DNA of 64,000 bases from a virus, in IMG/VR virus record IMGVR_UViG_3300021185_003284, positions 1 to 64,000 of that record; one strand, 5' to 3'. Below, piece after piece: positions 16,404-63,609 of this stretch. The notes beneath the pieces are model-generated. The model saw nothing but the letters and a program-made list of their open reading frames with translations, searched no databases and was not told the DNA's origin. The translations under genes and the position numbers were made by a program. Within the stretch, counting starts at the first letter, position 1. The number at the start of each line of letters is the position of its first letter.

Positions 16404-16862
16404 ATGGATTACTTAAATCAATTAGAGTGGGAAAAGATAATAGATATCACTAAAACTCCCTCTGGTCTATTTTGGCCTGAATGTCCTAGAGAATTTGCAA
16501 CGTTGTATAAACAAGGAGTTTATCGTATCTTAGTACAAGATAATGAAGGTGTAGTTAGAGTACGTAAAAATGGTATATACGGTGAAGGAAAAAAGAAAGG
16601 CGTAAACAATAGGATTAGTCAATATAGGAGTGCTAATAATAATCTACTTGAGTGGAGAAAAGGTAATAAAAAAGATAACGGTAGTTTTAAGACTTGTGAT
16701 ATATTAGATAAAAAGCTTAAAAATGGCCAAAAAGCAGTTATGATATCAGCTAAACTACCTGATAATTGGGTTAATGATACTGGATTTCCTTGCAAGATAG
16801 ACTTATACGAAATTGAATACGATCTTAAACAACAAACTTTAGAAGAAATATGGCTAACTTAG
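16404..16862 (+). CDS. hypothetical protein, possibly GIY-YIG-like nuclease
   Basis: GVYRI...KNG...RISQY pattern; weak similarity. Confidence 0.4.
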   Translation: MDYLNQLEWEKIIDITKTPSGLFWPECPREFATLYKQGVYRILVQDNEGVVRVRKNGIYGEGKKKGVNNRISQYRSANNNLLEWRKGNKKDNGSFKTCDILDKKLKNGQKAVMISAKLPDNWVNDTGFPCKIDLYEIEYDLKQQTLEEIWLT

Positions 16863-19381
16863 AAAAAAAGTACTACACAGTCCAAGATAAAGCGGACTTA
16901 AAATTATTACATCAGCATATTGTAGAATCTGATATACTTGCAGTCGATACAGAGACTACTGGTCTTAATCCTAGGAAGGATAAGATAGTAGGTTGGTCTG
17001 TTTCTGGTGATGAAGGTATAGGATTTTATCTTCCTACGTTAGTATGGAACTTTGATAAAGGAGAATTAGAGTTGCAAACTATCGATGGTACTTCTACTGA
17101 GACTATTTCCAGAAACTTACTTAACTTACTTAAAGGTAAAAAACTAGTATTCCATAACGCATCGTTTGATGTTCAATTTATTAAGAATTACTTAGGAGTT
17201 GATTTATTACCTGACGTATGGGTAGATACTGGATTACTAGTACATACTGTATTTGAAGAAGGAGCATTTGGTTTTGGTAACCCCTTTGGTTTAAAGTCTA
17301 TTGCTAAGATGAATCAGAAAGAGCTAGGTCTTGATATGGACAAAGCGGCTAATGATGAGCAAGTAGAATTGAAAGAGAGTATTAAAGGTAACGGAGGTTC
17401 TGTTACTAAAGATTTATATGAAATTTATAAAGCCGATCTTAGTATTCTTTCTAAGTATGCTTCTGCAGATACCGATTTAACATTACGTATATGTAATATG
17501 TACCTTAAAAAACTTGAAGAAGAAGGACTAACTAAATTCTTCTTTGAAGATGAGGTAATGCCAATCTATAGAGAAGTTACTGTTCCTATGGAAGCTTATG
17601 GAGTAGATTTAGATAATGACCTTATTGAAAAGATTCATAGTGAGATTGAAAAAGATCAGAAAGAGAATAAAGAGATTGTTATGAAATCCCTACTTGACTT
17701 AAGACAGGTTCAGGAATGGGTAATACATACTGCTACGTCTGCTTACCCTCCTAATCATAAAGGTACTTGGGCTCAGAGATTAATTAGCAGGTATTCATTA
17801 CCGTTACCTAAGTCTGAAAAGACAGGTAAGTATTCTATTACTCAAAAGAATATAGAGGAGTTAGAAGACTCTAACATTAAAGAGTTTCTTCTCACTGGTA
17901 ATTTAGAATTGATTGAGTTAAAAGAACAGGCTCGTATATCTATGGACTTGTGGAGAGAATCTAATGATGGAGATTATATTAATATTCAATCTAAGAAGCA
18001 TTTAGGTGAAATAGTTTTTCAATACCTAAAAGAAAAGCCTAAAACGTCAGGTGCTAATACCAAGTCAGGTAGAGATAAATTTGATATGACTATGGTAGAA
18101 GAGTTAGCTAAGAAGTATCCCTGGGCTGAAAACTTACGTATATATAATAAGTTACTTAAGATTAAATCTACCTACGTAGACAGGTTTAGAGACCGTCAGG
18201 AAGACGGTAAGTACTTCTTTTACTTTAAGCAGAACGGTACAGTATCTGGTCGTTATGGATCTGATGCTCAACAGCTACCTAAGCCTTTAGAAGAAGGAGA
18301 AGATGCTCCTATTATTATGAAGTATGTTAATATAGTTAGAGCTTTCCTGACTGCTGGTAAAGGTAGAAAAGTTATTGACTGTGATTACGAATCTCTAGAA
18401 CCTCACTGCTTTGCATCTGTATCAGGAGATAAAAAACTGCAAGAGATATTTGCTAATAATTGGGACTTTTATTCTTATGTAGCTATACAAACTGAAAATC
18501 TTGAAGGAGTATCTGCTGATAAAAAAGCTGATAACTATCTTAAGAAGTTAGATCCTGTAAAGAGAAATAAAGCTAAAGCTTATTCGTTAGGAGTTGCATA
18601 CGGTATGGAGGCATTTGCTTTAAAAATGACTTTAGGAGTAGAGCAGAATGTAGCTGAAGAGTTAATCAAAGGTTATCTAGAGGGATTCCCAGGATTAGCT
18701 AAATGGAGAGAGGATTCTAGATTACAAGTAGAAACTCATGGTAGAATTACTAATTATCTTGGCAGGATACGTCATTTACCTAAGGTGCAGAGAATACAAG
18801 AAGAGCACGGTACTTATATAGATAAGAAATCTGGTGATGTTAAATGTAATATACTAAACTGGAGATATAGACAAGATTGGCAAGATACTACTCTAACTGA
18901 AAAGTGGAGAGAAGAGACTTGGGATAAAATATCAGATGGGGATACTTGGGACTTAGAATCGTTTCATGAAATTATAGGAGCTCCTAAGGTAAAAGAGTCT
19001 ATGCCTCCTCAACAGATTAATCAAATGTATACCGATGCTTTTACTCGTTTTGTTAGAGATAAAGCTAAAGCTGAAGCTTTACAGACTTATAGAGATTATA
19101 GAAACGGTAGAAATAACTGCTTAAACTTTCAATTGCAATCATTAGCAGCTGCTGTAGTCAATAGAGCTGCTTTAAAGATTAATAGAAAAGCTAAAGAATT
19201 AGGTATCGATGCTATAGTGCAAGCACAGGTTCATGATCAACTTGTTGTTAACGTAGATGAGAAAGATGCTAAGATGTTCGCCCCTATAGTCCAAGAGTTA
19301 ATGGAGAATACTACAATACTACCTGGCGTAACTTTAAAAGCTCCTCCAGAGATAGCTAATAACTGGAAAGACGGTCACTAG
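16850..19381 (+). CDS. polA: DNA polymerase family A with 3'-5' exonuclease
   Basis: DTETTG, FHNASFD, YASAD exonuclease motifs; DYESLE (A), RNKAKAYSLGVAYG (B), QVHDQL (C). Confidence 0.95.
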   Translation: MANLEKKYYTVQDKADLKLLHQHIVESDILAVDTETTGLNPRKDKIVGWSVSGDEGIGFYLPTLVWNFDKGELELQTIDGTSTETISRNLLNLLKGKKLVFHNASFDVQFIKNYLGVDLLPDVWVDTGLLVHTVFEEGAFGFGNPFGLKSIAKMNQKELGLDMDKAANDEQVELKESIKGNGGSVTKDLYEIYKADLSILSKYASADTDLTLRICNMYLKKLEEEGLTKFFFEDEVMPIYREVTVPMEAYGVDLDNDLIEKIHSEIEKDQKENKEIVMKSLLDLRQVQEWVIHTATSAYPPNHKGTWAQRLISRYSLPLPKSEKTGKYSITQKNIEELEDSNIKEFLLTGNLELIELKEQARISMDLWRESNDGDYINIQSKKHLGEIVFQYLKEKPKTSGANTKSGRDKFDMTMVEELAKKYPWAENLRIYNKLLKIKSTYVDRFRDRQEDGKYFFYFKQNGTVSGRYGSDAQQLPKPLEEGEDAPIIMKYVNIVRAFLTAGKGRKVIDCDYESLEPHCFASVSGDKKLQEIFANNWDFYSYVAIQTENLEGVSADKKADNYLKKLDPVKRNKAKAYSLGVAYGMEAFALKMTLGVEQNVAEELIKGYLEGFPGLAKWREDSRLQVETHGRITNYLGRIRHLPKVQRIQEEHGTYIDKKSGDVKCNILNWRYRQDWQDTTLTEKWREETWDKISDGDTWDLESFHEIIGAPKVKESMPPQQINQMYTDAFTRFVRDKAKAEALQTYRDYRNGRNNCLNFQLQSLAAAVVNRAALKINRKAKELGIDAIVQAQVHDQLVVNVDEKDAKMFAPIVQELMENTTILPGVTLKAPPEIANNWKDGH

Positions 19382-21057: not shown

Positions 21058-21402
21058 ATGGATAAAAAGTTATACCCAAAAAACGATCGAATACTGTTAA
21101 TACCTATAGACGAAGGTGAGCAGACATACGGTTCGATTGTAATCCCTGACATGGGGAAGGAAAAGCCTGAAATGGGCAAAGTTATTGCAGTTGGTCCTGG
21201 TAGACTATCTGAATATGGAAAAAACATTCCCGTTAGAACTTGTAGAGAAGGAGATATAGTACTTGTACCTAAAATTGGTACTTTGAGAATTGACTTTGAA
21301 GGTCAAGAGTATTATATTGCTCAAGATAGAGAAGTATTAGCGGTGATTAAAGAAGTAGAATCAGAACCAAAAACTAAAATAGATCCAGAGTACTATGACT
21401 AA
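21058..21402 (+). CDS. groES: co-chaperonin GroES
   Basis: PKNDRIL, IVIPD..KEKP..G.VIAVGPG. Confidence 0.93.
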   Translation: MDKKLYPKNDRILLIPIDEGEQTYGSIVIPDMGKEKPEMGKVIAVGPGRLSEYGKNIPVRTCREGDIVLVPKIGTLRIDFEGQEYYIAQDREVLAVIKEVESEPKTKIDPEYYD

Positions 21403-23038
21403 AAAGATTACATTTTCAGACGATGCTAGGAATAATCTAGCTGATGGAGTCGATAAACTAGCAAATGCAGTTACGGCAACCTTAGGACCTGCAGGACGAA
21501 ACGTTATTATAGAACAAGATATGGGTAACCCAGTATCTACTAAAGACGGAGTTACTGTAGCAAAATCAATTACATTAAAAAATAAAGTAGAGAACCTAGG
21601 AGCACAAATAGTTAAACAAGCAGCTATTAAAACAGCTGACTTAGCTGGAGATGGAACTACTACTTCAACATTATTAGCCCAATCTATACTTAATGAAGGA
21701 CTGGATAGGCTAAAAGCAGGATCAAATGCCGTAGACGTAAAGAGAGGTATTGAGAAAGCTGTTAAAATAATTGTAGAAGGACTACAAGAAGATTACTCTA
21801 AAGAAATCACGGACGAGGAACAGTTGAAACAGGTAGCCACCATTTCAGCTAATAATGATAAAGAAGTTGGTGAATTAATTTCCACTGCCATGGACAAAGT
21901 TGGTCAGGATGGAGTCGTAACAATTGAAGAATCTAAAACAGGAGAAACATATCTCGAAACAGTCGAAGGTATGCAATTCAATCGCGGTTATAAGTCTCCT
22001 TACTTCGTTACAGACAATAATACCATGTCAGCTGTTCTCTCGAATCCGTTAGTATTATTAATCGACAAAAGAGTTAGTGCTATTAAAGAGTTACTACCTA
22101 TCTTAGAAGGAGCTTCTCAGCAAAACAAATCATTACTAGTAATAGCAGATGATATAGAAGGAGAGGCACTATCTACTATGGTAGTTAATAAGATGAGAGG
22201 TATTTTGCCTGTAGTAGCAGTTAAAGCTCCTGAATTTGGTGATAGAAAAAAAGCAATGTTAGAAGATATAGCAGTGCTTACTGGTGCAACAGTCATATCT
22301 CCAGATAAAGGAATGAGGTTAGAAAAGTTCGATGCTAAATGGTTAGGTTCTTCCGGAAAGGTAACCGTTACAAAAGATACCTGTACTATAATCGATGCAA
22401 AAGGAGAAGAGTCAGTAATTACACAGAGGATTGAAGAAATCAAAACTCAAATAGATGAAAGCAATTCACCTTATGAAAAAGAAAAACTTCAAGATAGGTT
22501 AGCAAAATTTATGGGTGGCGTAGCTCTAGTTCATGTTGGAGGACATACTGAAGTTGAAATGAAAGAGAAAAAAGATAGAGTTGATGATGCTCTACATGCC
22601 ACCAAAGCTGCCTTGGAAGAAGGAATTTTACCTGGAGGAGGAGTAGCTTTACTTAACGCTTCTATGGAATTAGTACATACATTAAGTTCTTTTGATAGTG
22701 ATGATGAAAGATTAGGAGCTGATATAGTTATTAATGCTTGTGAAAGACCATTCTATACTATCTTATTAAATGCAGGTTATACTAATGATCAGATAGGAGA
22801 TATAGAAGAAGATTTAAAAACCAACTATGATAAATGGTCAGGTTATAATCCAAGAAACAAAAACATAGTTAATATGTTTGCAGAAGGAATAATCGATCCA
22901 ACTAAGGTAACGAGACTAGCCTTAGAAAATGCAGCATCAGTAGCAGGTACGTTACTTATTACTGAAGCAGTTGTCTCAAAAGGAAAAGAGAAAAAAGATA
23001 CAGCACCGGGAGTAGATCCTAATATGCTGTTAGGTTAA
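21395..23038 (+). CDS. groEL: chaperonin GroEL
   Basis: TLGPAGRNV, TKDGVTVAK, GDGTTT, GIIDPTKV. Confidence 0.98.
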   Translation: MTKKITFSDDARNNLADGVDKLANAVTATLGPAGRNVIIEQDMGNPVSTKDGVTVAKSITLKNKVENLGAQIVKQAAIKTADLAGDGTTTSTLLAQSILNEGLDRLKAGSNAVDVKRGIEKAVKIIVEGLQEDYSKEITDEEQLKQVATISANNDKEVGELISTAMDKVGQDGVVTIEESKTGETYLETVEGMQFNRGYKSPYFVTDNNTMSAVLSNPLVLLIDKRVSAIKELLPILEGASQQNKSLLVIADDIEGEALSTMVVNKMRGILPVVAVKAPEFGDRKKAMLEDIAVLTGATVISPDKGMRLEKFDAKWLGSSGKVTVTKDTCTIIDAKGEESVITQRIEEIKTQIDESNSPYEKEKLQDRLAKFMGGVALVHVGGHTEVEMKEKKDRVDDALHATKAALEEGILPGGGVALLNASMELVHTLSSFDSDDERLGADIVINACERPFYTILLNAGYTNDQIGDIEEDLKTNYDKWSGYNPRNKNIVNMFAEGIIDPTKVTRLALENAASVAGTLLITEAVVSKGKEKKDTAPGVDPNMLLG

Positions 23039-25950: not shown

Positions 25951-26918
25951 TACAGAGAACAGCAGAGGTAGTTTCACCAAAGCACCCTGATAAATTATGT
26001 GATAGAGTTTCTGACGCTATCCTAGATTTATTTTTAGAAAAAGATCCATTAGTAAGATGTGCAGTTGAAACATGCGGCGGTCACGGTAAGTTATTTATTA
26101 CAGGAGAGATAACATATTATGGTCCAGTAATTGAAGAGAGTCAAATTAAAAATATTGCTAAAATTATTACAGGTATTGAACCTGAAAACGTCACTCTTAA
26201 TATTGTAGCACAATCACCAGAAATAGCACAAGGAGTCGACACAGGAGGTGCAGGTGATCAAGGTATTATGATAGGTTATGCATGTAACGACAATGAGGAA
26301 TACATACCGCAAGAGTATTACTTGGCTAGAAAATTAAATAGGGAGATATACAAAGAGTATCCATACGATGGAAAAACTCAAGTTACTATAGCCGGTAAAA
26401 ATGTTTCAATTGTTGCTTCATTTCAAATGGCTCCTAAGAGTGCATTAGAGAGAATATGTAAAGCTTTTGCTAAAACAGAGAAATTAAAAATTAAATCACT
26501 TCATTGTAACCCGGCGGGAGACTGGAAGCTTGGAGGATTTGATGCAGATGCAGGAGTAACTGGTAGAAAACTAGCAGTAGATAATTACGGACCAAGAGTA
26601 CCTTTGGGAGGAGGAGCTTTTAGCGGTAAAGATGCTACTAAGGTTGACAGATCAGCTGCATATATGGCAAGGTATATTGCTGTAGATTTACTTAAAAAGA
26701 AGAAAGCTGAAGAAGTCTTTGTTGAATTGTCATATGCAATTGGACATAATAGACCTATTCAAGCTACTGCTACTGTAGACGGTAAGCAGATATCGTTAGC
26801 TAAATATGATTATAAATTAGCTCCTAATAGTATTATTAGTTTCTTAGATTTGAGAAAACCTATATTTGCAGGAACTGCTACTTGGGGTCATATGGGAAGA
26901 GGATTTAATTGGAATTAG
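25947..26918 (+). CDS. metK: S-adenosylmethionine synthetase
   Basis: HPDKLCD, GAGDQG, DGKTQV, GRK, GGGAFSGKDATKVDRS. Confidence 0.97.
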   Translation: MIQRTAEVVSPKHPDKLCDRVSDAILDLFLEKDPLVRCAVETCGGHGKLFITGEITYYGPVIEESQIKNIAKIITGIEPENVTLNIVAQSPEIAQGVDTGGAGDQGIMIGYACNDNEEYIPQEYYLARKLNREIYKEYPYDGKTQVTIAGKNVSIVASFQMAPKSALERICKAFAKTEKLKIKSLHCNPAGDWKLGGFDADAGVTGRKLAVDNYGPRVPLGGGAFSGKDATKVDRSAAYMARYIAVDLLKKKKAEEVFVELSYAIGHNRPIQATATVDGKQISLAKYDYKLAPNSIISFLDLRKPIFAGTATWGHMGRGFNWN

Positions 26919-26919
26919 T

Positions 26920-28053
26920 ATGATTACAGATGAGGTTATAATTTATCAGTCCTTATTATTAGATAAGATAGCTAAACCTAATAAATGCGTCTTAGACGTT
27001 GGTTTTGGATGGGGGATGACTTCTAAGTATATATACGAAAAAGGATGTAAGTCTCTTACTATTATCGAACAGAGAAGTGATATAGCTGCAAGAGCAAGTG
27101 AATGGGCAGCAGATAAACCTAATGTAACTGTTTATCAAGGGGACTGGCAAGATGTAATCCCAGAGTTAGCAGCAGCAGGAGAAAAGTACGATGGTATATA
27201 TATGGATACTTTCTGCCCTGAAAATGAAGATTTTACTTTTAATAAAACTGAAGAAGAGTATAAAGAAATGCTTAACTATTTTTATGTTAAGCCTACTCAA
27301 GCAGAAGAGAATAAGTATAGTTCATTTGAAAGTTATGCTGAATCTGTAGCAGATGAAAATTGTATCTTATGTTTATACGAGTATAGTAAATATAGAAAGT
27401 TAGAAGATTTAAATTTTTACTACGTTGATACTCCATGGATGACTTCTGGATTTCCTTCTACTCATAAGATATGTTGGACGTATTTTACTGCAGGTAAATT
27501 TAGAAAAGATAAGTATTTCGATAGAGAAGATAATTTTCTTTCTGATAAACTATGTGATGAACTAATATCAGATAATAAAGAAACTCTAGTATATACAGAA
27601 CAAGAAGCTGTTATAAATAAAATAAAACATCAAAGAAAATTTTATTTTACTCATATAAAATATAATGCTGAATTAGAATCTATATTAAATAATACCATTT
27701 TTAGTAGATTTAAAGAAATAGATATTAATGATTTATGGATAGCATTAGTTAAATATGAACCTGGACAAGGTTATGATAGACATGTAGAATCATTAAAAGG
27801 TATGCCGTTAGACGATAAAGAACAGTATGTAGATACTGTGGAAATATCACTTACTGATAATGGAGTAACTCAGATATACGATGATTTTAGAAAAGAGAAT
27901 AGACTTATTTATTCTACTCTTAAATGTAAAAAAGGACAAATGTTGAAATATAAGACCTATCAACATGTTCAGTATAATAAATTAAAAGAAGGAGTTAGAT
28001 ATCAACTTTTAATTTTCTTAAAAAACAGTGATTATAATAAATTTTTAATTTAA
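26920..28053 (+). CDS. methyltransferase (GAMT/Rmt2-like) fused to a C-terminal 2OG-Fe(II) oxygenase-like domain
   Basis: LDVGFGWG, GDWQDV, YDGIYMDTF; C-terminal KYEPGQGYDRHVE...H...GVRY. Confidence 0.7.
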   Translation: MITDEVIIYQSLLLDKIAKPNKCVLDVGFGWGMTSKYIYEKGCKSLTIIEQRSDIAARASEWAADKPNVTVYQGDWQDVIPELAAAGEKYDGIYMDTFCPENEDFTFNKTEEEYKEMLNYFYVKPTQAEENKYSSFESYAESVADENCILCLYEYSKYRKLEDLNFYYVDTPWMTSGFPSTHKICWTYFTAGKFRKDKYFDREDNFLSDKLCDELISDNKETLVYTEQEAVINKIKHQRKFYFTHIKYNAELESILNNTIFSRFKEIDINDLWIALVKYEPGQGYDRHVESLKGMPLDDKEQYVDTVEISLTDNGVTQIYDDFRKENRLIYSTLKCKKGQMLKYKTYQHVQYNKLKEGVRYQLLIFLKNSDYNKFLI

Positions 28054-28253: not shown

Positions 28254-28674
28254 CGAAGTTTGGTATACTATAGAGAATAATTTAAGTTACCCTCATGTTG
28301 ACGGAGTAGTCTGCATCGGACCAGATACTTTTTGTTCTTATAAGAATACTATTCAAGCTAGTATTGACTCTTTTAATAATAGTATAGTTTGGACTGAGAT
28401 GTGGGACTTAGAAGATGCTAAATCTAGATTAGATGAAGGTCATGTTCTATTTATAGGAGTAGATAAAGATGGTCCACTTGCACATGTTTGGTTTGACAAC
28501 GATTATCTTTATAATATGTACGTTAATCCTAGACGGCCAGAAGGTTATGGAGTTAACTTTGTACAGTTTTGCCTTCAATTTATAGTACATGATAAGATAC
28601 GTTTATATTGTGATGACTGGAATATTAGAGCACAGAAATTTTTTGAAAAGATAGGATTTGAAAAAAATAGTTGA
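28243..28674 (+). CDS. GNAT-family acetyltransferase
   Basis: LYNMYVNPRRPEGYG, NIRAQKFFEKIGF. Confidence 0.75.
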   Translation: MGTNEVWYTIENNLSYPHVDGVVCIGPDTFCSYKNTIQASIDSFNNSIVWTEMWDLEDAKSRLDEGHVLFIGVDKDGPLAHVWFDNDYLYNMYVNPRRPEGYGVNFVQFCLQFIVHDKIRLYCDDWNIRAQKFFEKIGFEKNS

Positions 28675-29173
28675 AGTTAGTAATTTATTATCAAAGAAAG
28701 ATATAACTTTCATTATGTCTAATCTTACGCTTCTAGGTGAACTTAGAAATGAGGACGAGACTTTTAACAGATCTATTTACATTGCCAAAAGAGAAAATAA
28801 GTTATTTACTAACTTGTTCGATAAATGTGATAATACTTTTTTTGAACACTTTGGGAAGAAACTTAAGAGCCATGAATTATACTTTATAAAATATTACAAA
28901 GGAGATTATATTAAAAAGCATAATGACAATTGGCAAACATCTACAAGTTCTGGCAGACTCTATTCCTTAGTAGCACAAATGACTCATCCTAATTTGTATA
29001 AAGGAGGAGATACTATAGTTTATGGAGATAAAGAAGTAAAGCTTTCGAAAAATCAAGGAGACGGTATAATTTTTCCTAGTAGTACTGATCACGAACTAAC
29101 AGAAATAACAGAAGGAATAAGGTTTTCTTTTGTAGTTATGTTCAAAGAAACTCTAAAGTTTCCTCTCTTATAG
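28658..29173 (+). CDS. 2OG-Fe(II) oxygenase
   Basis: KY..GD...HND, Y.GG, FPS...H......G.R.S. Confidence 0.88.
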   Translation: MKKIVEVSNLLSKKDITFIMSNLTLLGELRNEDETFNRSIYIAKRENKLFTNLFDKCDNTFFEHFGKKLKSHELYFIKYYKGDYIKKHNDNWQTSTSSGRLYSLVAQMTHPNLYKGGDTIVYGDKEVKLSKNQGDGIIFPSSTDHELTEITEGIRFSFVVMFKETLKFPLL

Positions 29174-58414: not shown

Positions 58415-59140
58415 ATGAATGTAGCAGTATTAGTAGAAATTATAAAAGAGACGGACAAAAATTGGCGATTCATATTTGAGTCGCCTTTGTACGATAAGAT
58501 AGATTTCGTCTCTGGCCAGCTTGTTCAATTAGCGATCCAGGATCCTATTGAGGCAGGCTACTACCATAAAAGAAATTATTCAGTAGCATCTTGGCCAGAT
58601 GGTACAAACAGGTTTGAACTTATCATAACCTACATACCTGGAGGTTTATTCTCTGAGTTTTTATTTAAGGAAGCAAAGATAGGAGATGAATTTCTCTACA
58701 GAGGTCCATTAGGAGTATTTACTTTACCGAACTTACAGAAACTAGATAGAGATATATACTTTGTGAGTACTGGTTCCGGAATAAGTCCTTTTAGATCCAT
58801 AATGGGTTGGATAGGAGAAAATCCTGATAAGATAGAAACTAAGAAGCTTAAATTATTCTTTGGTACACGAACTGAAAAGGAAATACTTTATAGAGATGAA
58901 ATGGAGGCTTTAGAAAAGAAGCTTCCTAACTTTGAATTCATTCCAACATTATCTCAAGAACAATGGGACGGTAAAACAGGATATGTCCATGACCACTACC
59001 TTAAACTAATAGATGAGATGGATGAAAAACCTTTAGTATACTATTGTGGATGGGATAAAATGATTAGAGAAGGAAGAAGCCATCTAGATGCTAGAGGATT
59101 TGAAATGACTAAAGATATCAGAGTAGAAATATTTGGATAA
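58415..59140 (+). CDS. FAD/NAD(P)H ferredoxin reductase-type oxidoreductase
   Basis: RNYSVAS, GGLFS, GPLG, TGSGISPF, YYCG. Confidence 0.9.
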   Translation: MNVAVLVEIIKETDKNWRFIFESPLYDKIDFVSGQLVQLAIQDPIEAGYYHKRNYSVASWPDGTNRFELIITYIPGGLFSEFLFKEAKIGDEFLYRGPLGVFTLPNLQKLDRDIYFVSTGSGISPFRSIMGWIGENPDKIETKKLKLFFGTRTEKEILYRDEMEALEKKLPNFEFIPTLSQEQWDGKTGYVHDHYLKLIDEMDEKPLVYYCGWDKMIREGRSHLDARGFEMTKDIRVEIFG

Positions 59141-59586
59141 TGGAAGGACCAATGGCAGCTTTAGACCTTCTTAACGAAAAGGCATTTCAGCATATAAAAA
59201 ATAACGTCGTCACTCAATTAACTTGTAGAAAAATTGGTCTTACGTTTTGTGCTTTGACCGATATTTATAAAGGACAAGAGGTATTCCTACCTTGGGATGG
59301 ACCAACAAGGGAATACAGCTTTATTGTAGATAGGATCGAAGAACTCCACGGAAACGTATTTGGTACCCTACTACGATACTTTGACAATCATTCTTATTTA
59401 GAAAAGGGTGTTGTTAATTTTAAATTAGTGCACGGTGTTAACTTTATAGTGGCACAACCTGAATGTATTTTATCCCCCGATGGAGAGGGTGGCAACTTAG
59501 AGTCAGGAACTATAAAGGCTAGATGGGATATTATTGCTACAACAGAGCTTTCACTCTATGAAGCAAGAAGTAGACCACTTTTGTAA
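59140..59586 (+). CDS. degenerate SET-domain-like protein
   Basis: GLTFCALTDIYKGQEVF and ARWDIIATTELSLY; canonical NHS motif absent. Confidence 0.5.
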   Translation: MEGPMAALDLLNEKAFQHIKNNVVTQLTCRKIGLTFCALTDIYKGQEVFLPWDGPTREYSFIVDRIEELHGNVFGTLLRYFDNHSYLEKGVVNFKLVHGVNFIVAQPECILSPDGEGGNLESGTIKARWDIIATTELSLYEARSRPLL

Positions 59587-59646: not shown

Positions 59647-61881
59647 ATGAAAGGTACATTATTTTCAGCTGACTTTGTAAAAGACGGAAACGGCGATAGT
59701 AAACTAATCGAAATCAACACTGATACAGCTTGTATCGCAGGATTAGCTTCTAACATCGACTTTACTGATCTTTACTCAGTTTTAGCTACAAACACAATCA
59801 CAGACCTACAGGTAATCTATAAAGAATTTCAAGAGCCAATCTTAGATAGACTTAAAGCTCAGAAACCTGAGGGAGTAACAATCACCGAACATAAGGAAAT
59901 ACACTCTTCTATATATCCAACTTCTATAGCAGACGATGCTACTAAGTTTATATTGAGATTAGCTTATGACGAAAATGCATTATTAGATGCCATTTACGCT
60001 AAAAATGATGCAAACTTACATGGTTTGTTCGGAGCACAAGGACCAGCATCAGCATCACTTGTAGTATCTGCTAAACAGTCAGCAGATTCCTCTAACCTTA
60101 ATTACGTATTAAACGGACCAACAGAACCAGATTTTGCTGTTAAGCCTAAAGTTCCTACTAAATCAGGAATTGACTTTTATAAGCTAGGAGGTTCAACAGG
60201 ATCTATTGAAGACAGGATAAACGAATTTACTGCTTCTATTGATTCAGGCGTTAATGTAATTACAAACTACGTTAGTGATGCAACAGATACAGCTAAGTCA
60301 GTAAGATCATATCAAATCGTATATGGAGCTGATTTAGATATCACTTGGTTAGGTGCTTATACTCTTGATGCTTTATTTACTCATACTTTAAGTTTAGTAT
60401 ACGATGATAATAAAGTAGTTAATAAATTAGCTAACAAGCATTACTATGAATTTGCTACTAATGACATCTCAGATAACGAAGGTGTTTATTATGAGGCTAA
60501 AATTAAGAAAGAAGATGGTAACTACGATGTAGCGGAAGATGCAGTAATAGGTACATTATATGATTCTTATTATGTAAGTGGATCGCCGATGACTGATAAC
60601 AGTCTTATATTAGACTCATGGTCTTTTGCTGGAGATACTCTACCTTCTGGTTCATATAGTACATCATCATCTTTACAGTCAAACACTTCAGTCACAATGG
60701 GAGATAATTCATTAAGAAGAATTACTCTTGATGACGGACAAACAGTACTATTAGGAGGAGCTAACAGAGCATTAGTACATGATAATGTTAATAATGAAAC
60801 TTCTTACTTAAGAGCTAGAGATATTAAAGCTGGATTCAAATTATTTGATGAAAACGGAGCTAGTAAAGGAGTTACTGCACATGATATAATCATATTAGAT
60901 AACGACTCAGATTCTAAAATTATAGAATTAGGAGTAGAGGATGTAGATAACTATGTTGTAAGTGGGTCTAATACTATTATTCACAACGCACCTTGTTTCA
61001 TTGCCGGAACTAAAGTTAATATGGAAGACGGTTCAATGAAGAATATTGAAGACGTTAAAGAAGGAGATCAAGTATGTTGTTGGGACTTTGAAATAAATGG
61101 TTTCTCAAATGAGAAAGTATTAATAACTACTGAAACAGAAGATCAGAAAGTAGTACAGATAACATTTAAATGCTTCGGTAATGATCTAGATATATATGCA
61201 ACTCCAGACCATCCATTCTTTGTAGAAGGTGGTAAAGGTTGGGCATGTCAAGATCCAGAATTACTTAAAGAAAAGACTGGAATGGAAGCTGCTCTATTAG
61301 ATGCAGGAGATAGTATACTGACAGGTAAGGAAGGAGAAACTTCTATTGTTACAGGAATTACTTCTTGTGACTGGACAGCGACAGTATATAACTTAGATAA
61401 CGTATTCAAATATAATAACTACTTTATATATGGAATGTTAGTACACAACAGATTTATCTTTTCTTGTCATACTTATGATAGTAAAGTAGAAATGGCTGAT
61501 GGTACTCACAAAGCTATAGGAGAAGTAAAAGTTGGAGATAAAGTAAAATCTATCAAAGACGGAATCGTAACAGAAGGTACTGTTACTGATCATTTAATTC
61601 ACGTTACTAACGATGTAATGAGAACAATCAAAACTACTAATGGATATACAGAAATCAATCACCCAATCTTAGTTGACGGTGAGTGGGTAGCTGCTAAAGA
61701 ATTAGGAGAAGTAGAAAGTGTATTTGTTGATAACTTCTATAACTTAGAAATTGACGGAAACATTTCTGAAAGTGATCATAACTATATCGTTGACGGAATG
61801 GTATCATCAGGATTAGGAGACAGCAAAGAGCTTAATGCTAAATATCAGAGACAACCTAAACAATTAACTAAACACTTATAA
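59647..61881 (+). CDS. ATP-grasp-like domain fused to three tandem Hint (intein-like) domains
   Basis: ADF...KLIEINTD and AVKP; ...IIHN-AP-CFIAGT...ATPDHPF...LVHN-RFIFS-CHTYDS...NHPI...HNYIVDG. Confidence 0.8.
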   Translation: MKGTLFSADFVKDGNGDSKLIEINTDTACIAGLASNIDFTDLYSVLATNTITDLQVIYKEFQEPILDRLKAQKPEGVTITEHKEIHSSIYPTSIADDATKFILRLAYDENALLDAIYAKNDANLHGLFGAQGPASASLVVSAKQSADSSNLNYVLNGPTEPDFAVKPKVPTKSGIDFYKLGGSTGSIEDRINEFTASIDSGVNVITNYVSDATDTAKSVRSYQIVYGADLDITWLGAYTLDALFTHTLSLVYDDNKVVNKLANKHYYEFATNDISDNEGVYYEAKIKKEDGNYDVAEDAVIGTLYDSYYVSGSPMTDNSLILDSWSFAGDTLPSGSYSTSSSLQSNTSVTMGDNSLRRITLDDGQTVLLGGANRALVHDNVNNETSYLRARDIKAGFKLFDENGASKGVTAHDIIILDNDSDSKIIELGVEDVDNYVVSGSNTIIHNAPCFIAGTKVNMEDGSMKNIEDVKEGDQVCCWDFEINGFSNEKVLITTETEDQKVVQITFKCFGNDLDIYATPDHPFFVEGGKGWACQDPELLKEKTGMEAALLDAGDSILTGKEGETSIVTGITSCDWTATVYNLDNVFKYNNYFIYGMLVHNRFIFSCHTYDSKVEMADGTHKAIGEVKVGDKVKSIKDGIVTEGTVTDHLIHVTNDVMRTIKTTNGYTEINHPILVDGEWVAAKELGEVESVFVDNFYNLEIDGNISESDHNYIVDGMVSSGLGDSKELNAKYQRQPKQLTKHL

Positions 61882-61883
61882 TC

Positions 61884-62021
61884 ATGCCAGAAATATATAA
61901 AACAATCTCACTAGCAGATTACGGAAACAGAAATGCAACGGCTTTGACTGCTGACGAACAAACAGATGTAAGAGCAACTGTTACTAAGTTCATCGAACTT
62001 TTCAAAGCAGAACATTTATAA
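61884..62021 (+). CDS. 45-aa hypothetical protein, not in ORF track
   Basis: Fills the gap after the Hint gene; MPEIYKTISLADYG...FKAEHL. Confidence 0.6.
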   Translation: MPEIYKTISLADYGNRNATALTADEQTDVRATVTKFIELFKAEHL

Positions 62022-62030
62022 GATAGTTAA

Positions 62031-62573
62031 ATGATCTTAGAGCAAAAGGTTTTATTGACTCCTAAGGAGTGTCAAGATGTAATAGCATCATGTAAAGACA
62101 TTTGGTACCCATCATTATTGGGTAAGGAGGAATATAAACCTAAGCTTAGAAATAGTTTCGTACATATTAAGAAACCAAGAAAAGGAGAGGCCTTGTATGA
62201 ATACATACAAAGAGGCCTTTCCCTTGTTTCTGAAGAGCTCGTATCTGAAGAACCTTTACTTATTCAGATATTAAAATACAAAAAAGGAGGATTTATCTAC
62301 AAGCATAAAGATGACGTTACCTCTTCATTAAATGGTTTAGTTCAAGCACGTTACTACTTTATTATTCTTCTTAATGATGATTTTGAAGGAGGAGATTTTC
62401 TAGCATATGATAATAAAGATACTGTGTATAAATTAGATAGGAAACAAGGTAACATACTTATAGGAGATCCGACTATGTTTCATGAAGTTACTAAAGTTAC
62501 AAAAGGTACAAGATATAGCCTAATATGTTTTATTACACCAGACCTTCTTAAACCTAATAATACTATAATTTAA
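62031..62573 (+). CDS. 2OG-Fe(II) oxygenase (prolyl-hydroxylase-like)
   Basis: KY..GG...HKD, LNDDFEGG, HEVTKVTKGTRYS. Confidence 0.9.
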   Translation: MILEQKVLLTPKECQDVIASCKDIWYPSLLGKEEYKPKLRNSFVHIKKPRKGEALYEYIQRGLSLVSEELVSEEPLLIQILKYKKGGFIYKHKDDVTSSLNGLVQARYYFIILLNDDFEGGDFLAYDNKDTVYKLDRKQGNILIGDPTMFHEVTKVTKGTRYSLICFITPDLLKPNNTII

Positions 62574-63121
62574 TGAAACCTAATTTTAAACATTATGGTT
62601 CTATAAATGTAGCTCCTTTTCTTTCTGCTTTGGAAGCTATCAAACCTCAAGACTGGAGTAAATATACCTACCGTCAAGACTTATTTCCTATGCATAACAA
62701 AACTCAAACTATACCAGTACTATATGATACAGACTACGAAATAGGAGTAAGTAAAAAATCATCTTTTTACAAAATATTTGAAAGTTCAATAGAGCATGCA
62801 ACTAAAAAGATATCTGAGTTAACCAAATCTAACTGCTCTATAATAAGATTTATTATTACTAACCTTCCAGCTAATACAGTAGTCGATGAGCATAGAGATA
62901 AAGCAAATAGTTTTAAACTTTATAATAGAGTACATATACCTTTAATTACTAATGATAAAGTTCTTTTCACAGTAGGAGAAGAAACAATCAATATGCCTGT
63001 AGGAGAAATGTATGAAATAAACAACAATGATCAACTTCATGGAGTAGTAAATAGCAGTAACCAAGACAGGCTACATATTATTTTAGATTGGTATGATTAT
63101 ACTAAAAGAACAGCCATATGA
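62573..63121 (+). CDS. aspartyl/asparaginyl beta-hydroxylase-like oxygenase
   Basis: HRD, RVHIPLITN, EINN...HGVVN...DRLHIILD. Confidence 0.85.
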   Translation: MKPNFKHYGSINVAPFLSALEAIKPQDWSKYTYRQDLFPMHNKTQTIPVLYDTDYEIGVSKKSSFYKIFESSIEHATKKISELTKSNCSIIRFIITNLPANTVVDEHRDKANSFKLYNRVHIPLITNDKVLFTVGEETINMPVGEMYEINNNDQLHGVVNSSNQDRLHIILDWYDYTKRTAI

Positions 63122-63609
63122 AAAATATACTAATAATAGCATTACCAAGATCAGGAGGAACTTCTATTATGCATCAGTTAGCTGAAAAGCATAATTTAAA
63201 AGCAAGATTTGAACCTGAATTAACTCAATGGCCAGTAGCACCTAAAGACGACGTTACCAAAGTTATTGTTGATAGATTCAGTATGGTAGATATTTTTTCT
63301 ATAGCTGAAAATTACGATAATATTATATTGCATAGCAGACATGATATAGAATCTACAGCAGAATCTTTAGCTACAATGCTTCATCACTGGGGAGATGAAA
63401 GTCATGCTGAGAAACCATGGCATGCTGATTTACTCAAAGAAGTACCGCAGTGGTATTTAGAGCAAACTAACCATAGAATAGTACATTGTCAATTACTAAT
63501 GCATGTATTAAGTGACGAACTTAAAGTACCTATTCAATATTATGAAGATCTATTTGACCTTAATTCAAAAGAAAGATTAAGAAAAGATTTAGATAGAACA
63601 CTGTTATGA
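63118..63609 (+). CDS. sulfotransferase-like protein
   Basis: ALPRSGGTS PAPS loop, FEP, R......ES, YYEDLF. Confidence 0.7.
   Translation: MKNILIIALPRSGGTSIMHQLAEKHNLKARFEPELTQWPVAPKDDVTKVIVDRFSMVDIFSIAENYDNIILHSRHDIESTAESLATMLHHWGDESHAEKPWHADLLKEVPQWYLEQTNHRIVHCQLLMHVLSDELKVPIQYYEDLFDLNSKERLRKDLDRTLL

What the first reader, a model, noticed from the sequence alone, without database searches (positions are those of the whole stretch)
59647..62021. ATP-grasp-like enzyme fused to three tandem Hint domains with tiny peptide linkers: possible self-processing peptide-ligation system
Seen: the 744-aa protein has an N-terminal region with 'ADFVKDGNGDSKLIEINTD' and 'FAVKP'. Three Hint-like units follow. 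Hint1 (~G279-N447) has Gly instead of Cys1 but ends IIHN. A linker 'AP' leads to Hint2 (C450-N601), which has CFIAGT, TPDHPF and LVHN. A linker 'RFIFS' leads to Hint3 (C607 onward), which has Cys1 and NHPI but no terminal HN and ends in a Vint-like 'HNYIVDGMVSSGLG'. Established: Cys1 drives N-terminal cleavage or thioester formation and His-Asn drives C-terminal cleavage. The D-F...E-x-N-x-D then K-P order matches glutathionylspermidine-synthase/circularly permuted ATP-grasp ligases. Inference: the arrangement (C-cleaving only, then both, then N-cleaving only) would excise exactly the two short peptides AP and RFIFS, possibly as thioesters. Hint2 is followed by Arg, not Cys/Ser/Thr, so canonical splicing is unlikely. 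The ATP-grasp and the downstream oxygenases and sulfotransferase could ligate or modify these peptides. A coupled 45-aa ORF follows and, like the polyprotein, ends in HL. I know of no described system with this architecture.
Basis: partly seen in the sequence, partly recalled or inferred. Interest (0 to 1): 0.92.

Follow-up and report, generated by a model that had tools for sequence, protein, structure and literature searches.

The report
Phage ATP-grasp ligase with three Hints
A large marine phage encodes a probable ATP-using bond-forming enzyme fused to three self-cutting "Hint" domains. It is always followed by a tiny partner gene, and this layout recurs in hundreds of uncultured phages and in no described family, though what it makes is still unknown.

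Summary
Window 59647-61881 (+) encodes a 744-aa protein with four confident domains.

- **Residues 1-273:** a glutathione-synthetase / glutathionylspermidine-synthase type, circularly permuted ATP-grasp fold. Its metal and nucleotide residues are invariant.
- **Residues 276-447 (Hint1):** Gly at position 1, no TxxH, ends His-Asn.
- **Residues 450-601 (Hint2):** a type-A bacterial intein-like Hint with Cys1 and His-Asn.
- **Residues 607-744 (Hint3):** a Vint-type Hint with Cys1 and no terminal Asn.

Relatives occur only on uncultured phage contigs. The ATP-grasp+Hint1 core is constant. What follows His-Asn varies: 0-3 further intact Hints, a short tail, or a 26-34-aa six-cysteine peptide. Junction residues are almost invariant, but the linkers run from 0 to 14 residues.

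The 45-aa ORF is real. A homologous 43-55-aa gene ending in K-H-(L/S/T) lies directly downstream in 149 of 152 non-identical loci. It usually sits with 2OG oxygenase, SET-like and sulfotransferase-like genes.

Best reading (about 0.5): a self-cleaving ligase precursor within a protein or peptide modification cassette. Substrate and product are unknown. A follow-up elsewhere in this scan reached the same fold assignment on another genome.

The parts
59647..61881 (+). Gene for the 744-aa ATP-grasp / three-Hint precursor (P0001), stop codon included
   Evidence: ORF list and translation. Full-length homologues run from 98% down to 34% identity.
59647..60465 (+). Residues 1-273: minimal circularly permuted ATP-grasp domain of the GS/GspS class. 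Near-invariant residues are K2, D9, E22, N24, T25, K59, R104, D108, D162, K166, K179, R220 and E268.
   Evidence: VIA Z 9.4-7.8 to 5oeu, 7uka (YgiC), 2io7 (GspS), 9cjn and 2vpm. Foldseek E 8e-7 to human GS. hhalign to E. coli YgiC/YjfC/GspS gives E 6e-5 and aligns D9/E22/N24/D26 with D102/E115/N117/D119. Conservation over 240 sequences.
60472..60987 (+). Residues 276-447: Hint1, a degenerate Hint. It has Gly279 at position 1, no TxxH block, retains E431, D434, H446 and N447, and ends His-Asn.
   Evidence: Z 18.8 to 2lwy, 18.4 to 6tmm and 18.2 to 1at0. G at position 1 in 233/240 sequences; ends HN in 225/230 and N in 229/230.
60988..60993 (+). Linker Ala-Pro (residues 448-449)
   Evidence: Linker length in relatives is 0 (29 proteins), 1 (7), 2 (144) or 3-14. 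pLDDT is below 50 in the full-length model.
60994..61449 (+). Residues 450-601: Hint2, a type-A bacterial intein-like (BIL) domain with Cys450, T519-x-x-H522, H600-N601 and Arg at +1
   Evidence: Pfam PT-HINT 6e-18 and Intein_splicing. PDB profile hit to BIL2 at 9e-22. Z 21.6 to 6y75. Cys1 in 259/259, HN in 258/259, and +1 never C/S/T.
61450..61464 (+). Linker RFIFS (residues 602-606)
   Evidence: Linkers at this position are 1-14 residues with no sequence conservation. pLDDT is below 50.
61465..61878 (+). Residues 607-744: Hint3, a Vint-type Hint. It has Cys607 and H672-P673. VSS replaces the terminal VHN. A conserved SGLGD...RQ...KHL tail follows.
   Evidence: Pfam Vint 2e-16. Z 15.5 to Vint 8r2c over residues 606-739. 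Cys1 in 126/126. It is the most conserved part of the protein, at 51-56% mean pairwise identity.
61884..62021 (+). 45-aa partner gene that starts 2 nt after the stop codon of the big gene. Y5 and F36 are invariant; K6 and F40 are conserved in over 90%. It ends in HL.
   Evidence: A homologue lies directly downstream in 32/32, 50/51, 62/63 and 5/6 non-identical loci. The two clades' versions are homologous: hhalign 91.8%, E 7e-7.
59140..59586 (+). 148-aa SET-like gene directly upstream
   Evidence: It matches the HMM of a neighbour cluster at E 2e-44. A member of that cluster hits Pfam SET at 2.8e-8. The cluster lies next to the gene pair in 15/32 loci. It is single-copy in this 113-kb record.
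62031..62573 (+). 2OG-Fe(II) oxygenase
   Evidence: Pfam 2OG-FeII_Oxy_3 at 3e-9. A member of this cluster lies within 8 kb in 32/32 loci and within 6 kb in 63/63 loci of the other clade.
62573..63121 (+). Asp/Arg beta-hydroxylase-like oxygenase
   Evidence: Pfam Asp_Arg_Hydrox at 4.6e-11. Found near the gene in only 4 related loci.
63118..63609 (+). Sulfotransferase-like gene (weak family assignment)
   Evidence: Pfam Sulfotransfer_3 at 0.083, below cut-off. Cluster present in 19/32 and 50/63 loci, and single-copy in this record.

Best explanation
The gene encodes a self-processing precursor of a phage amide-bond ligase.

Shown:
- Residues 1-273 are a minimal circularly permuted ATP-grasp domain of the glutathione-synthetase / glutathionylspermidine-synthase class. 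Its Mg/ATP residues are kept intact.
- It is rigidly joined to a degenerate Hint domain (276-447) that has lost the N-terminal nucleophile and keeps only the terminal His-Asn.
- This 447-residue core is the constant unit of a phage-only family.

Inferred from established Hint chemistry:
1. Asn447 cyclises and cuts the chain after Hint1.
2. Cys450 makes a thioester at Pro449-Cys450 and Asn601 cyclises, which frees the type-A BIL domain.
3. Cys607 of the Vint-type domain makes a thioester at Ser606-Cys607. Water or an unknown nucleophile resolves it.

The net result is a free ligase core, free Hint domains and incidental linker scraps (AP, RFIFS).

Also inferred: the freed core then uses ATP to join a carboxylate to an amine. 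The most likely substrate or partner is the 45-aa protein encoded 2 nt downstream, which is inherited with the core across the whole family. The neighbouring 2OG oxygenases, SET-like and sulfotransferase-like enzymes probably act on the same target.
For: - Fold and motif evidence for the ATP-grasp domain.
- D9, E22, N24, R104 and R220 are kept in at least 95% of 240 sequences, and K59, K166 and K179 in 90-95%. The metal triad and both arginines are also invariant in the distant six-Cys clade.
- All three Hint folds are confident.
- Junction residues are near-invariant: Hint1 N in 229/230, BIL Cys1 in 259/259 and HN in 258/259, Vint Cys1 in 126/126.
- Linkers vary from 0 to 14 residues.
- Only the junction segments and the C-terminal end are low-confidence in the full-length model. 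pTM is 0.57 for the full length against 0.82 for the core, so the appended Hints look like beads on a string.
- The core always sits at the N-terminus, followed by 0-3 Hints, a short tail or a six-Cys peptide.
- The Hints are as conserved as the enzyme domain, and copies within one protein are old, at 23-52% identity.
- The partner gene is present in 149 of 152 non-identical loci and is homologous between the two clades.
- Type-A BIL chemistry is as reviewed in PMC4031507.
Against: - No biochemical datum exists. Cleavage, ATP use and ligation are all inferred.
- If Asn447 alone released everything downstream, there would be little reason for the downstream Hints to keep perfect catalytic residues. 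Their chemistry probably has a purpose beyond self-removal that this model does not name.
- The domain lacks the first ~95 residues that YgiC and GspS have before the D...ExN motif. It also falls below every Pfam ATP-grasp threshold, so its substrate pocket cannot be read from relatives.
- Binding of the 45-aa protein could not be tested.
- 2OG oxygenases have three copies in this record, so their proximity is weaker evidence than that of the single-copy neighbours.
Confidence: 0.5

Rival explanations
1. The Hints act as ATP-independent conjugation modules, as in the Tetrahymena BUBL locus. The thioesters made by Cys450 and Cys607 are not hydrolysed. They are passed to an amine or other nucleophile, for example the conserved Lys6 of the 45-aa partner or a host or virion protein. 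This would attach the ligase core (or the preceding Hint) covalently to a target.
For: The best sequence and structure match of Hint2 is BIL2. BIL2 conjugates its upstream domain to lysines without ATP. The downstream Hints keep perfect catalytic residues although Hint1 could shed them. The Vint tail (715-744) is the most conserved segment, as expected for a nucleophile-recruiting region like the hedgehog sterol-recognition region. The same Vint+tail module ends virion structural proteins of other phages. The partner protein has a near-invariant Tyr-Lys.
Against: The core also occurs with no further Hint at all, yet with the partner gene still present. Thioester transfer therefore cannot be the family's common mechanism. 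No acceptor is identified. Cleavage products dominate in characterised type-A BILs (PMC4031507).
Confidence: 0.15
2. The extra BIL and Vint domains are selfish or neutral passengers. They landed behind Hint1 and persist only because they cut themselves out, and they contribute nothing to the phage.
For: Copy number varies from 0 to 3 among relatives and the modules are swappable. The Vint module also sits on unrelated proteins. The linkers are unconstrained.
Against: There is no homing endonuclease. Copies within one protein are old (23-52% identity) and fall into positional types, internal versus terminal. Hint3 and its tail are more conserved than the enzyme domain. At least one residue, usually Lys, is kept after the last His-Asn even at the protein's end (HNK ends 83 of 262 Hint-tailed proteins). 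Hint1's own cleavage would make their activity dispensable, yet it is conserved.
Confidence: 0.15
3. One reading: the arrangement exists to excise the two short peptides AP and RFIFS, possibly as thioesters. The ATP-grasp and neighbouring enzymes then ligate or modify them.
For: The complementary half-activities of the three Hints are real. In the distant clade, Hint1 is followed by a conserved 26-34-aa six-Cys peptide that would be released the same way.
Against: The linkers are not conserved in length or sequence. The first is absent in 29 proteins. The second is a single Lys or Arg in 23, with unrelated sequences elsewhere. Forms with one Hint, or none, bracket no peptide.
Confidence: 0.04
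4. The ATP-grasp-like domain is a catalytically dead scaffold of a virion or assembly protein. The C-terminal self-cleaving domains would act like the intramolecular chaperone domains of tail fibres.
For: The Vint module is shared with phrog_14478 virion structural proteins. Two distant members carry a weak Peptidase_S74-like end (below cut-off).
Against: Invariance of the metal triad and the basic residues over 22-98% identity is not expected of a dead scaffold. The gene sits among enzymes, not structural genes. There is no PHROG structural hit.
Confidence: 0.06

Closest known systems
E. coli YgiC/YjfC (peptide-spermidine ligases) and the synthetase domain of glutathionylspermidine synthetase/amidase; eukaryotic glutathione synthetase
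   Same: The permuted ATP-grasp fold is the same (Z 9.1 to 7uka, 8.8 to 2io7, 9.4 to 5oeu). The signature D-x9-(K/R)-L-L-E-x-N-x-D-T comes first in the chain and aligns with the invariant D102, K112, E115, N117 and D119 of the three E. coli paralogues. A later VKP strand is also shared.
   Different: The domain is only about 273 residues. It lacks the ~95 residues that precede the motif in YgiC and GspS. The Arg two residues before the first Asp is Ser here. No Pfam or NCBIfam model reaches threshold. It is fused to Hints and found only in phages.
Type-A bacterial intein-like (BIL) domains: Tetrahymena BUBL BIL2 (6tmm/6y75), Clostridium thermocellum BIL (2lwy)
   Same: Hint2 has Cys1, TxxH, a terminal His-Asn and no +1 nucleophile. 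These structures are its best matches by sequence profile (9e-22 and 8e-18) and by structure (Z 21.6).
   Different: In BUBL the BIL follows ubiquitin-like domains, and in bacteria it follows secreted or variable proteins. Here it follows an enzyme plus another Hint, and it occurs in tandem with distinct internal (HN-R) and terminal (HN-K-stop) types.
Vint domains and hedgehog/Hog autoprocessing domains
   Same: Hint3 passes the Pfam Vint cut-off (60.6 against 27 bits). It matches the Tetrahymena Vint structure (Z 15.5, 25% identity). It has Cys1 and no terminal Asn, so only N-terminal thioester chemistry is expected.
   Different: There is no von Willebrand A or signalling domain upstream. 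It lies at the end of phage proteins, and the nucleophile is unknown.
PT-HINT domains of bacterial polymorphic toxins
   Same: The Pfam PT-HINT model is the top hit for Hint2. The logic is also similar: a Hint that releases whatever lies C-terminal to it.
   Different: No toxin domain follows. The cargo is further Hints, a short tail or a six-Cys peptide.
Canonical inteins
   Same: The Hint fold and the Cys1 / His-Asn chemistry are shared.
   Different: There is no +1 Cys/Ser/Thr after Hint2-type domains (0 of 259). There is no C-extein of a host protein to rejoin and no homing endonuclease. Hint1 lacks any N-terminal nucleophile.

Membership tests
ATP-grasp superfamily, circularly permuted GS/GspS class | ATP-grasp fold as in glutathione synthetase / GspS / YgiC | tested here: met
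   VIA Z 9.4-7.8 with 190-222 aligned residues to ten or more enzymes of this class over residues 1-273. Foldseek E 8e-7 to 4e-5.
ATP-grasp superfamily, circularly permuted GS/GspS class | Permuted order: the D...E-x-N metal-binding strands precede the Lys-bearing nucleotide strands | tested here: met
   D9, E22 and N24 lie at the very N-terminus, and VKP (K166) and K179 come later. hhalign places D9/E22/N24/D26 on YgiC D102/E115/N117/D119.
ATP-grasp superfamily, circularly permuted GS/GspS class | Conserved metal and phosphate ligands | tested here: met
   D9, E22, N24, R104 and R220 are kept in at least 95% of 240 sequences, and K59, K166 and K179 in 90-95%. The triad and both arginines are also invariant in the six-Cys clade. 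Assigning each Lys or Arg to a role rests on general ATP-grasp knowledge, not on a residue-level superposition.
ATP-grasp superfamily, circularly permuted GS/GspS class | Match to a curated family HMM (GSP_synth, GSH_synth_ATP, CP_ATPgrasp) | tested here: not met
   GSP_synth scores E 0.14 in 1 of 22 members, and nothing else appears. NCBIfam and PHROGs find none.
ATP-grasp superfamily, circularly permuted GS/GspS class | N-terminal ~95-100 residues that precede the metal motif in YgiC and GspS | tested here: not met
   Model residue 1 aligns with YgiC residue 94 and GspS residue 311. All homologues start MKGT....
ATP-grasp superfamily, circularly permuted GS/GspS class | ATP-dependent carboxylate-amine ligation | not testable with these tools
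   Needs an enzyme assay.
Hint (hedgehog/intein) superfamily | Hint fold, three times | tested here: met
   Hint1 Z 18.8. Hint2 Z 21.6 and Hint3 Z 15.5. Pfam covers Hint2 and Hint3.
Type-A BIL domain (Hint2) | Cys at position 1, C-terminal His-Asn, no nucleophile at +1 | tested here: met
   C450, H600-N601 and R602 in this protein. Across copies: Cys 259/259, HN 258/259, and +1 is R, K or hydrophobic, never C/S/T. The definition is taken from PMC4031507.
Type-A BIL domain (Hint2) | Autocleavage or splicing activity | not testable with these tools
   Needs expression and mass spectrometry.
Canonical intein | Cys/Ser/Thr at +1 and a C-extein that restores a host protein | tested here: not met
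   +1 is Arg602. None of the 259 related copies has C/S/T at +1. What follows is another Hint or the stop codon.
Vint / hedgehog-type Hint (Hint3) | Pfam Vint above cut-off, Cys1, no terminal Asn | tested here: met
   Vint scores 60.6 bits against a cut-off of 27. C607 is invariant (126/126). VSS stands where Hint2 has VHN. The structure match to 8r2c runs through residue 739.
Vint / hedgehog-type Hint (Hint3) | Upstream von Willebrand A (Vint) or signalling (hedgehog) domain | tested here: not met
   The upstream parts are the ATP-grasp, Hint1 and Hint2.
PT-HINT polymorphic toxin | A toxin domain C-terminal to the Hint | tested here: not met
   Only a Vint-type Hint follows, and Pfam finds no toxin family.
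RiPP-like precursor with AP / RFIFS as core peptides | Conserved core peptide between the processing sites | tested here: not met
   Linker lengths are 0-14 and 1-14 residues with unrelated sequences.

The most novel reading that the evidence does not exclude
The ATP-grasp+Hint1 core, together with its ~46-aa K-H-L partner, would be a new kind of self-contained peptide or protein ligation machine. Hint1's Asn cyclisation would expose the alpha-amine of whatever is encoded behind it: a six-Cys 29-mer ending in Lys plus a hydrophobic residue in the larger clade, or Cys-initiated Hints here. The permuted ATP-grasp, whose relatives activate C-terminal peptide carboxylates, would then join that amine to a C-terminal carboxylate. 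The carboxylate could belong to the cargo itself, giving head-to-tail cyclisation and cyclotide-sized knotted peptides. It could instead belong to the partner protein, giving protein tagging. In the window's clade, the BIL and Vint thioesters would add an ATP-independent second ligation route.
Probability: 0.12. Interest if true: 0.95.

Novelty: new variant of a known kind. Interest (0 to 1): 0.78.

Why it matters
Both building blocks are textbook. ATP-grasp ligases make amide bonds, and Hint domains cut or splice proteins. I found no paper or family library that describes their fusion. A ligase permanently joined to a Hint that can only do C-terminal cleavage, followed by swappable self-cleaving cargo and an obligatory ~46-aa partner gene, is undescribed. 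The layout recurs on hundreds of uncultured phage contigs. It is absent from 50,697 GenBank phage records and from all but one of 185,579 species genomes; the exception is a 2.8-kb contig in a Cyanobium MAG.

If the precursor processes itself as predicted, it offers a natural set of orthogonal N-only, C-only and dual-cleaving Hints. These would be useful for protein engineering. It also points to a phage-encoded protein or peptide modification pathway of unknown product in abundant aquatic phages. The six-cysteine clade suggests that phages may release small knotted peptides.

Tried and rejected
- Sequence libraries gave nothing for residues 1-448: Pfam, PHROGs and NCBIfam.
- A PDB sequence search, with the single protein and with a profile, found only Hint matches.
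- The ESM Atlas gave only the protein's own kind of cluster.
- BFVD returned only Hint-containing viral proteins, with no annotated viral ATP-grasp relative.
- GenBank phages hold no relative of the core. P0001 hits only mycobacteriophage inteins, and P0233 hits nothing.
- Literature searches for Hint plus ATP-grasp, BIL plus phage, and Vint found no description of this architecture. PMC3268129 is not held.
- Promoter and terminator scans were uninformative.
- I considered a class-2-intein-like role for Hint1, with a +1 Cys attacking the Gly279 junction. I rejected it because Cys is at +1 in only 29 of 211 proteins and is absent in the short-tail forms.
- I considered recent tandem duplication of the BILs. 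I rejected it because copies within one protein are 23-52% identical and sort by position.
- I could not do a residue-level superposition on YgiC-ADP, because model coordinates are not exposed.
Full report
**The object.** Window 59647-61881 (+) is a 744-aa ORF. It follows a 60-nt AT-rich spacer and is itself followed, 2 nt after its stop codon, by a 45-aa ORF at 61884-62021. The window is the first 64 kb of a 113-kb IMG/VR virus record. That record is about 68% complete, has 33% G+C, and carries almost all its genes on one strand. It encodes GroEL, a family-A DNA polymerase, a carbamoyltransferase and tail-fibre genes. The polymerase is 60% identical to that of Flavobacterium phage vB_FspM_immuto, a 160-kb myovirus. 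A host in Flavobacteriia is therefore a reasonable inference, not a result.

**Checking the observation.** Pfam recognises Hint families only at residues 450-601 (PT-HINT 6e-18) and 606-724 (Vint 2e-16). Nothing in Pfam, PHROGs or NCBIfam covers residues 1-448.

An AlphaFold2 model of residues 1-449, built on 73 homologues, is confident (pLDDT 90.4, pTM 0.82). An aligner that does not depend on Foldseek splits it into two domains.
- Residues 276-447 are a textbook Hint fold. They match the C. thermocellum BIL at Z 18.8 (rmsd 1.7 A over 138 residues), BIL2 at Z 18.4 and hedgehog at Z 18.2.
- Residues 1-273 match enzymes of a single class. These are glutathione-synthetase-like proteins (Z 9.4), E. 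coli YgiC with ADP (9.1), GspS (8.8), the E-64 ligase Cp1B (8.4) and trypanothione synthetase (7.8), with 190-222 aligned residues each. Foldseek agrees.

Sequence supports the fold assignment. A profile comparison with E. coli YgiC, YjfC and GspS gives E 6e-5. It places D9, E22, N24 and D26 on their invariant D102, E115, N117 and D119. The metal-binding strands therefore come first in the chain, which is the permutation that defines this class.

The full-length model has pLDDT 84. It confirms Hint2 (Z 21.6 to BIL2) and Hint3 (Z 15.5 to the Tetrahymena Vint domain, aligned through residue 739). Its only low-confidence stretches are 439-449, 602-606 and 736-744. The first two are the junctions and the third is the C-terminal end. 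pTM falls to 0.57, so the extra Hints behave as beads on a string attached to a rigid core.

**The family.** Word-indexed and exhaustive searches found more than 800 close proteins and 204 representatives at the 50% clustering level. The ATP-grasp+Hint1 unit is always at the N-terminus and always starts MKGT.

I parsed 296 unique proteins with domain HMMs. After the core they carry BIL+Vint (124 proteins), one BIL (42), two BILs (36), three BILs (7), Vint alone (2) or no further Hint (19).

A second and larger clade gave 289 matches in IMG/VR. There, His-Asn is followed by a 26-34-aa peptide with six cysteines. The pattern C-x-C-x3-6-C-x3-C-x4-C-x2-C occurs in 61 of 73 tails. A Lys lies within the last three residues in 69 of 73.

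No record among 50,697 GenBank phages holds the core. Among 185,579 species genomes, only one 2.8-kb contig in a Cyanobium MAG does.

**What is conserved.**
- In the ligase domain, K2, D9, E22, N24, T25, R104, Y107, D114, Y117 and R220 are kept in at least 95% of 240 sequences. K59, D108, D162, K166, K179 and E268 are kept in 90-95%.
- The metal triad and both arginines are also invariant in the six-Cys clade, which is only 22-26% identical. This pattern fits an active enzyme and not a scaffold.
- Hint1 has Gly at position 1 (233/240), no TxxH block, and keeps E431, D434, H446 and N447 (N in 229/230). It can only be expected to perform Asn cyclisation.
- BIL copies start with Cys (259/259) and end His-Asn (258/259). 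The next residue is Arg (132), Lys (101) or hydrophobic (26), and never Cys/Ser/Thr. This is the definition of a type-A BIL (PMC4031507).
- Vint copies start with Cys (126/126), and VSS stands where the BIL has VHN.
- Mean pairwise identity is 44% for the ligase domain, 35% for Hint1, 38% for Hint2, 51% for the Hint3 core and 56% for its tail.
- BIL copies within one protein are 23-52% identical. They sort into an internal type (HN-R) and a terminal type (HN-K-stop).

The Hints are therefore old and under selection, and they are not decaying.

**What is not conserved.** The linker after Hint1 is 0 residues in 29 proteins, 1 in 7, 2 in 144 (AP in 122) and 3-14 in the rest. The linker after a BIL is 1-14 residues of unrelated sequence. 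AP and RFIFS therefore cannot be the selected products.

**Context.** A 43-55-aa ORF lies directly downstream in four sets of non-identical loci. The counts are 32/32 in the first set, then 50/51 Hint-tailed, 62/63 six-Cys and 5/6 short-tail loci. It ends K-H-(L/S/T) with 0-2 further residues. The versions from the two clades are homologous (hhalign 91.8%, E 7e-7).

Other neighbours recur as well.
- A 2OG-Fe(II) oxygenase lies within 6-8 kb in 32/32 and 63/63 loci.
- A sulfotransferase-like gene is present in 19/32 and 50/63 loci.
- A SET-like gene is present in 15/32 loci, usually right after the small ORF.
- A radical-SAM gene is present in 16/32 loci.

The window's upstream 148-aa ORF, which Pfam leaves blank, belongs to the SET-like cluster (E 2e-44). 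In this record the SET-like and sulfotransferase-like genes are single-copy, and the oxygenase has three copies.

**Interpretation.** The following is shown: the four folds, the family, the conservation pattern and the gene pair.

The following is inferred from established Hint chemistry.
- Asn447 cuts after Hint1.
- Cys450 and Asn601 free the BIL.
- Cys607 forms a thioester at the last junction.

The following is inferred from the enzyme class and the synteny.
- The released core is an ATP-dependent carboxylate-amine ligase.
- Its target is the small partner protein or the cargo.
- The neighbouring enzymes tailor the same target.

One thing remains unexplained. The downstream Hints keep perfect catalytic residues although Hint1 could shed them. 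That keeps a BUBL-like thioester-conjugation role alive. It is also consistent with the Vint+tail module appearing at the end of virion structural proteins in other phages.

**Relation to earlier notes.** A follow-up on another genome (e1-5730965) independently called a permuted ATP-grasp fused to Hints. I reached the same result with my own models and searches. Notes on the 45-aa ORF and the tailoring cluster are borne out by synteny. The note that proposed AP and RFIFS as core peptides is contradicted.

**Limits.** No coordinates were available, so I could not measure the distance between Asn447 and the ATP site. The complex predictor, the contig look-up and the read-run finder were unavailable.

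Noticed in passing
window 59140-59586 (+): This 148-aa ORF has no Pfam or PHROG hit of its own. It nevertheless belongs to a SET-domain-like cluster (HMM E 2e-44). In other phages that cluster sits just after the small partner ORF.
   Followed up: partly
L056-L135 (IMG/VR), e.g. L056:6001-7497: There is a larger sister clade of ~495-aa proteins. Each has the ATP-grasp+Hint1 core, then His-Asn, then a conserved 26-34-aa six-cysteine tail that ends in Lys plus a hydrophobic residue. The tail is cyclotide-sized and would be released by Asn cyclisation.
   Followed up: partly
L043:66-8420, L044:4161-8420, L047:4722-8426, L049:6636-8444: The same Vint-type Hint with the SGLGD...RQ tail ends unrelated large phage proteins of 602-2784 aa. 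Two of them hit phrog_14478 (virion structural protein) and one has a crAss muzzle C-terminal domain. The module looks like a portable C-terminal self-cleaving unit in phage structural proteins.
   Followed up: partly
proteins P0220 and P0232 (distant family members): After Hint1's His-Asn, and after a Cys-rich stretch in P0232, comes an S-D-x-N-L-K-K motif and a weak Peptidase_S74-like domain (E 0.004-0.007, below cut-off). This would be a second, unrelated self-cleaving module behind the same core.
   Followed up: partly
window 58415-59140 (+): This is a ferredoxin-NADP reductase-like FAD/NAD oxidoreductase (Pfam 4e-22). It lies near the family gene in only 2 related loci, so it is probably not part of the cassette.
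   Followed up: partly
window 26866-28053, 28658-29173 and 62031-62573 (+): The 113-kb record holds three members of the same 2OG-Fe(II) oxygenase cluster. Only the last one is next to the Hint gene.
   Followed up: no
window 16850-19381 and 21395-23038 (+): The family-A DNA polymerase is 60% identical to that of Flavobacterium phage vB_FspM_immuto. The phage also encodes a GroEL-type chaperonin (PHROG 2e-162). The immuto phages lack the ATP-grasp/Hint gene.
   Followed up: partly
L215 (CAYNGR010000277.1, 2.8-kb contig binned with a Cyanobium MAG): This is the only match to the family in 185,579 species genomes. It is probably phage DNA binned with a cyanobacterial MAG.
   Followed up: no
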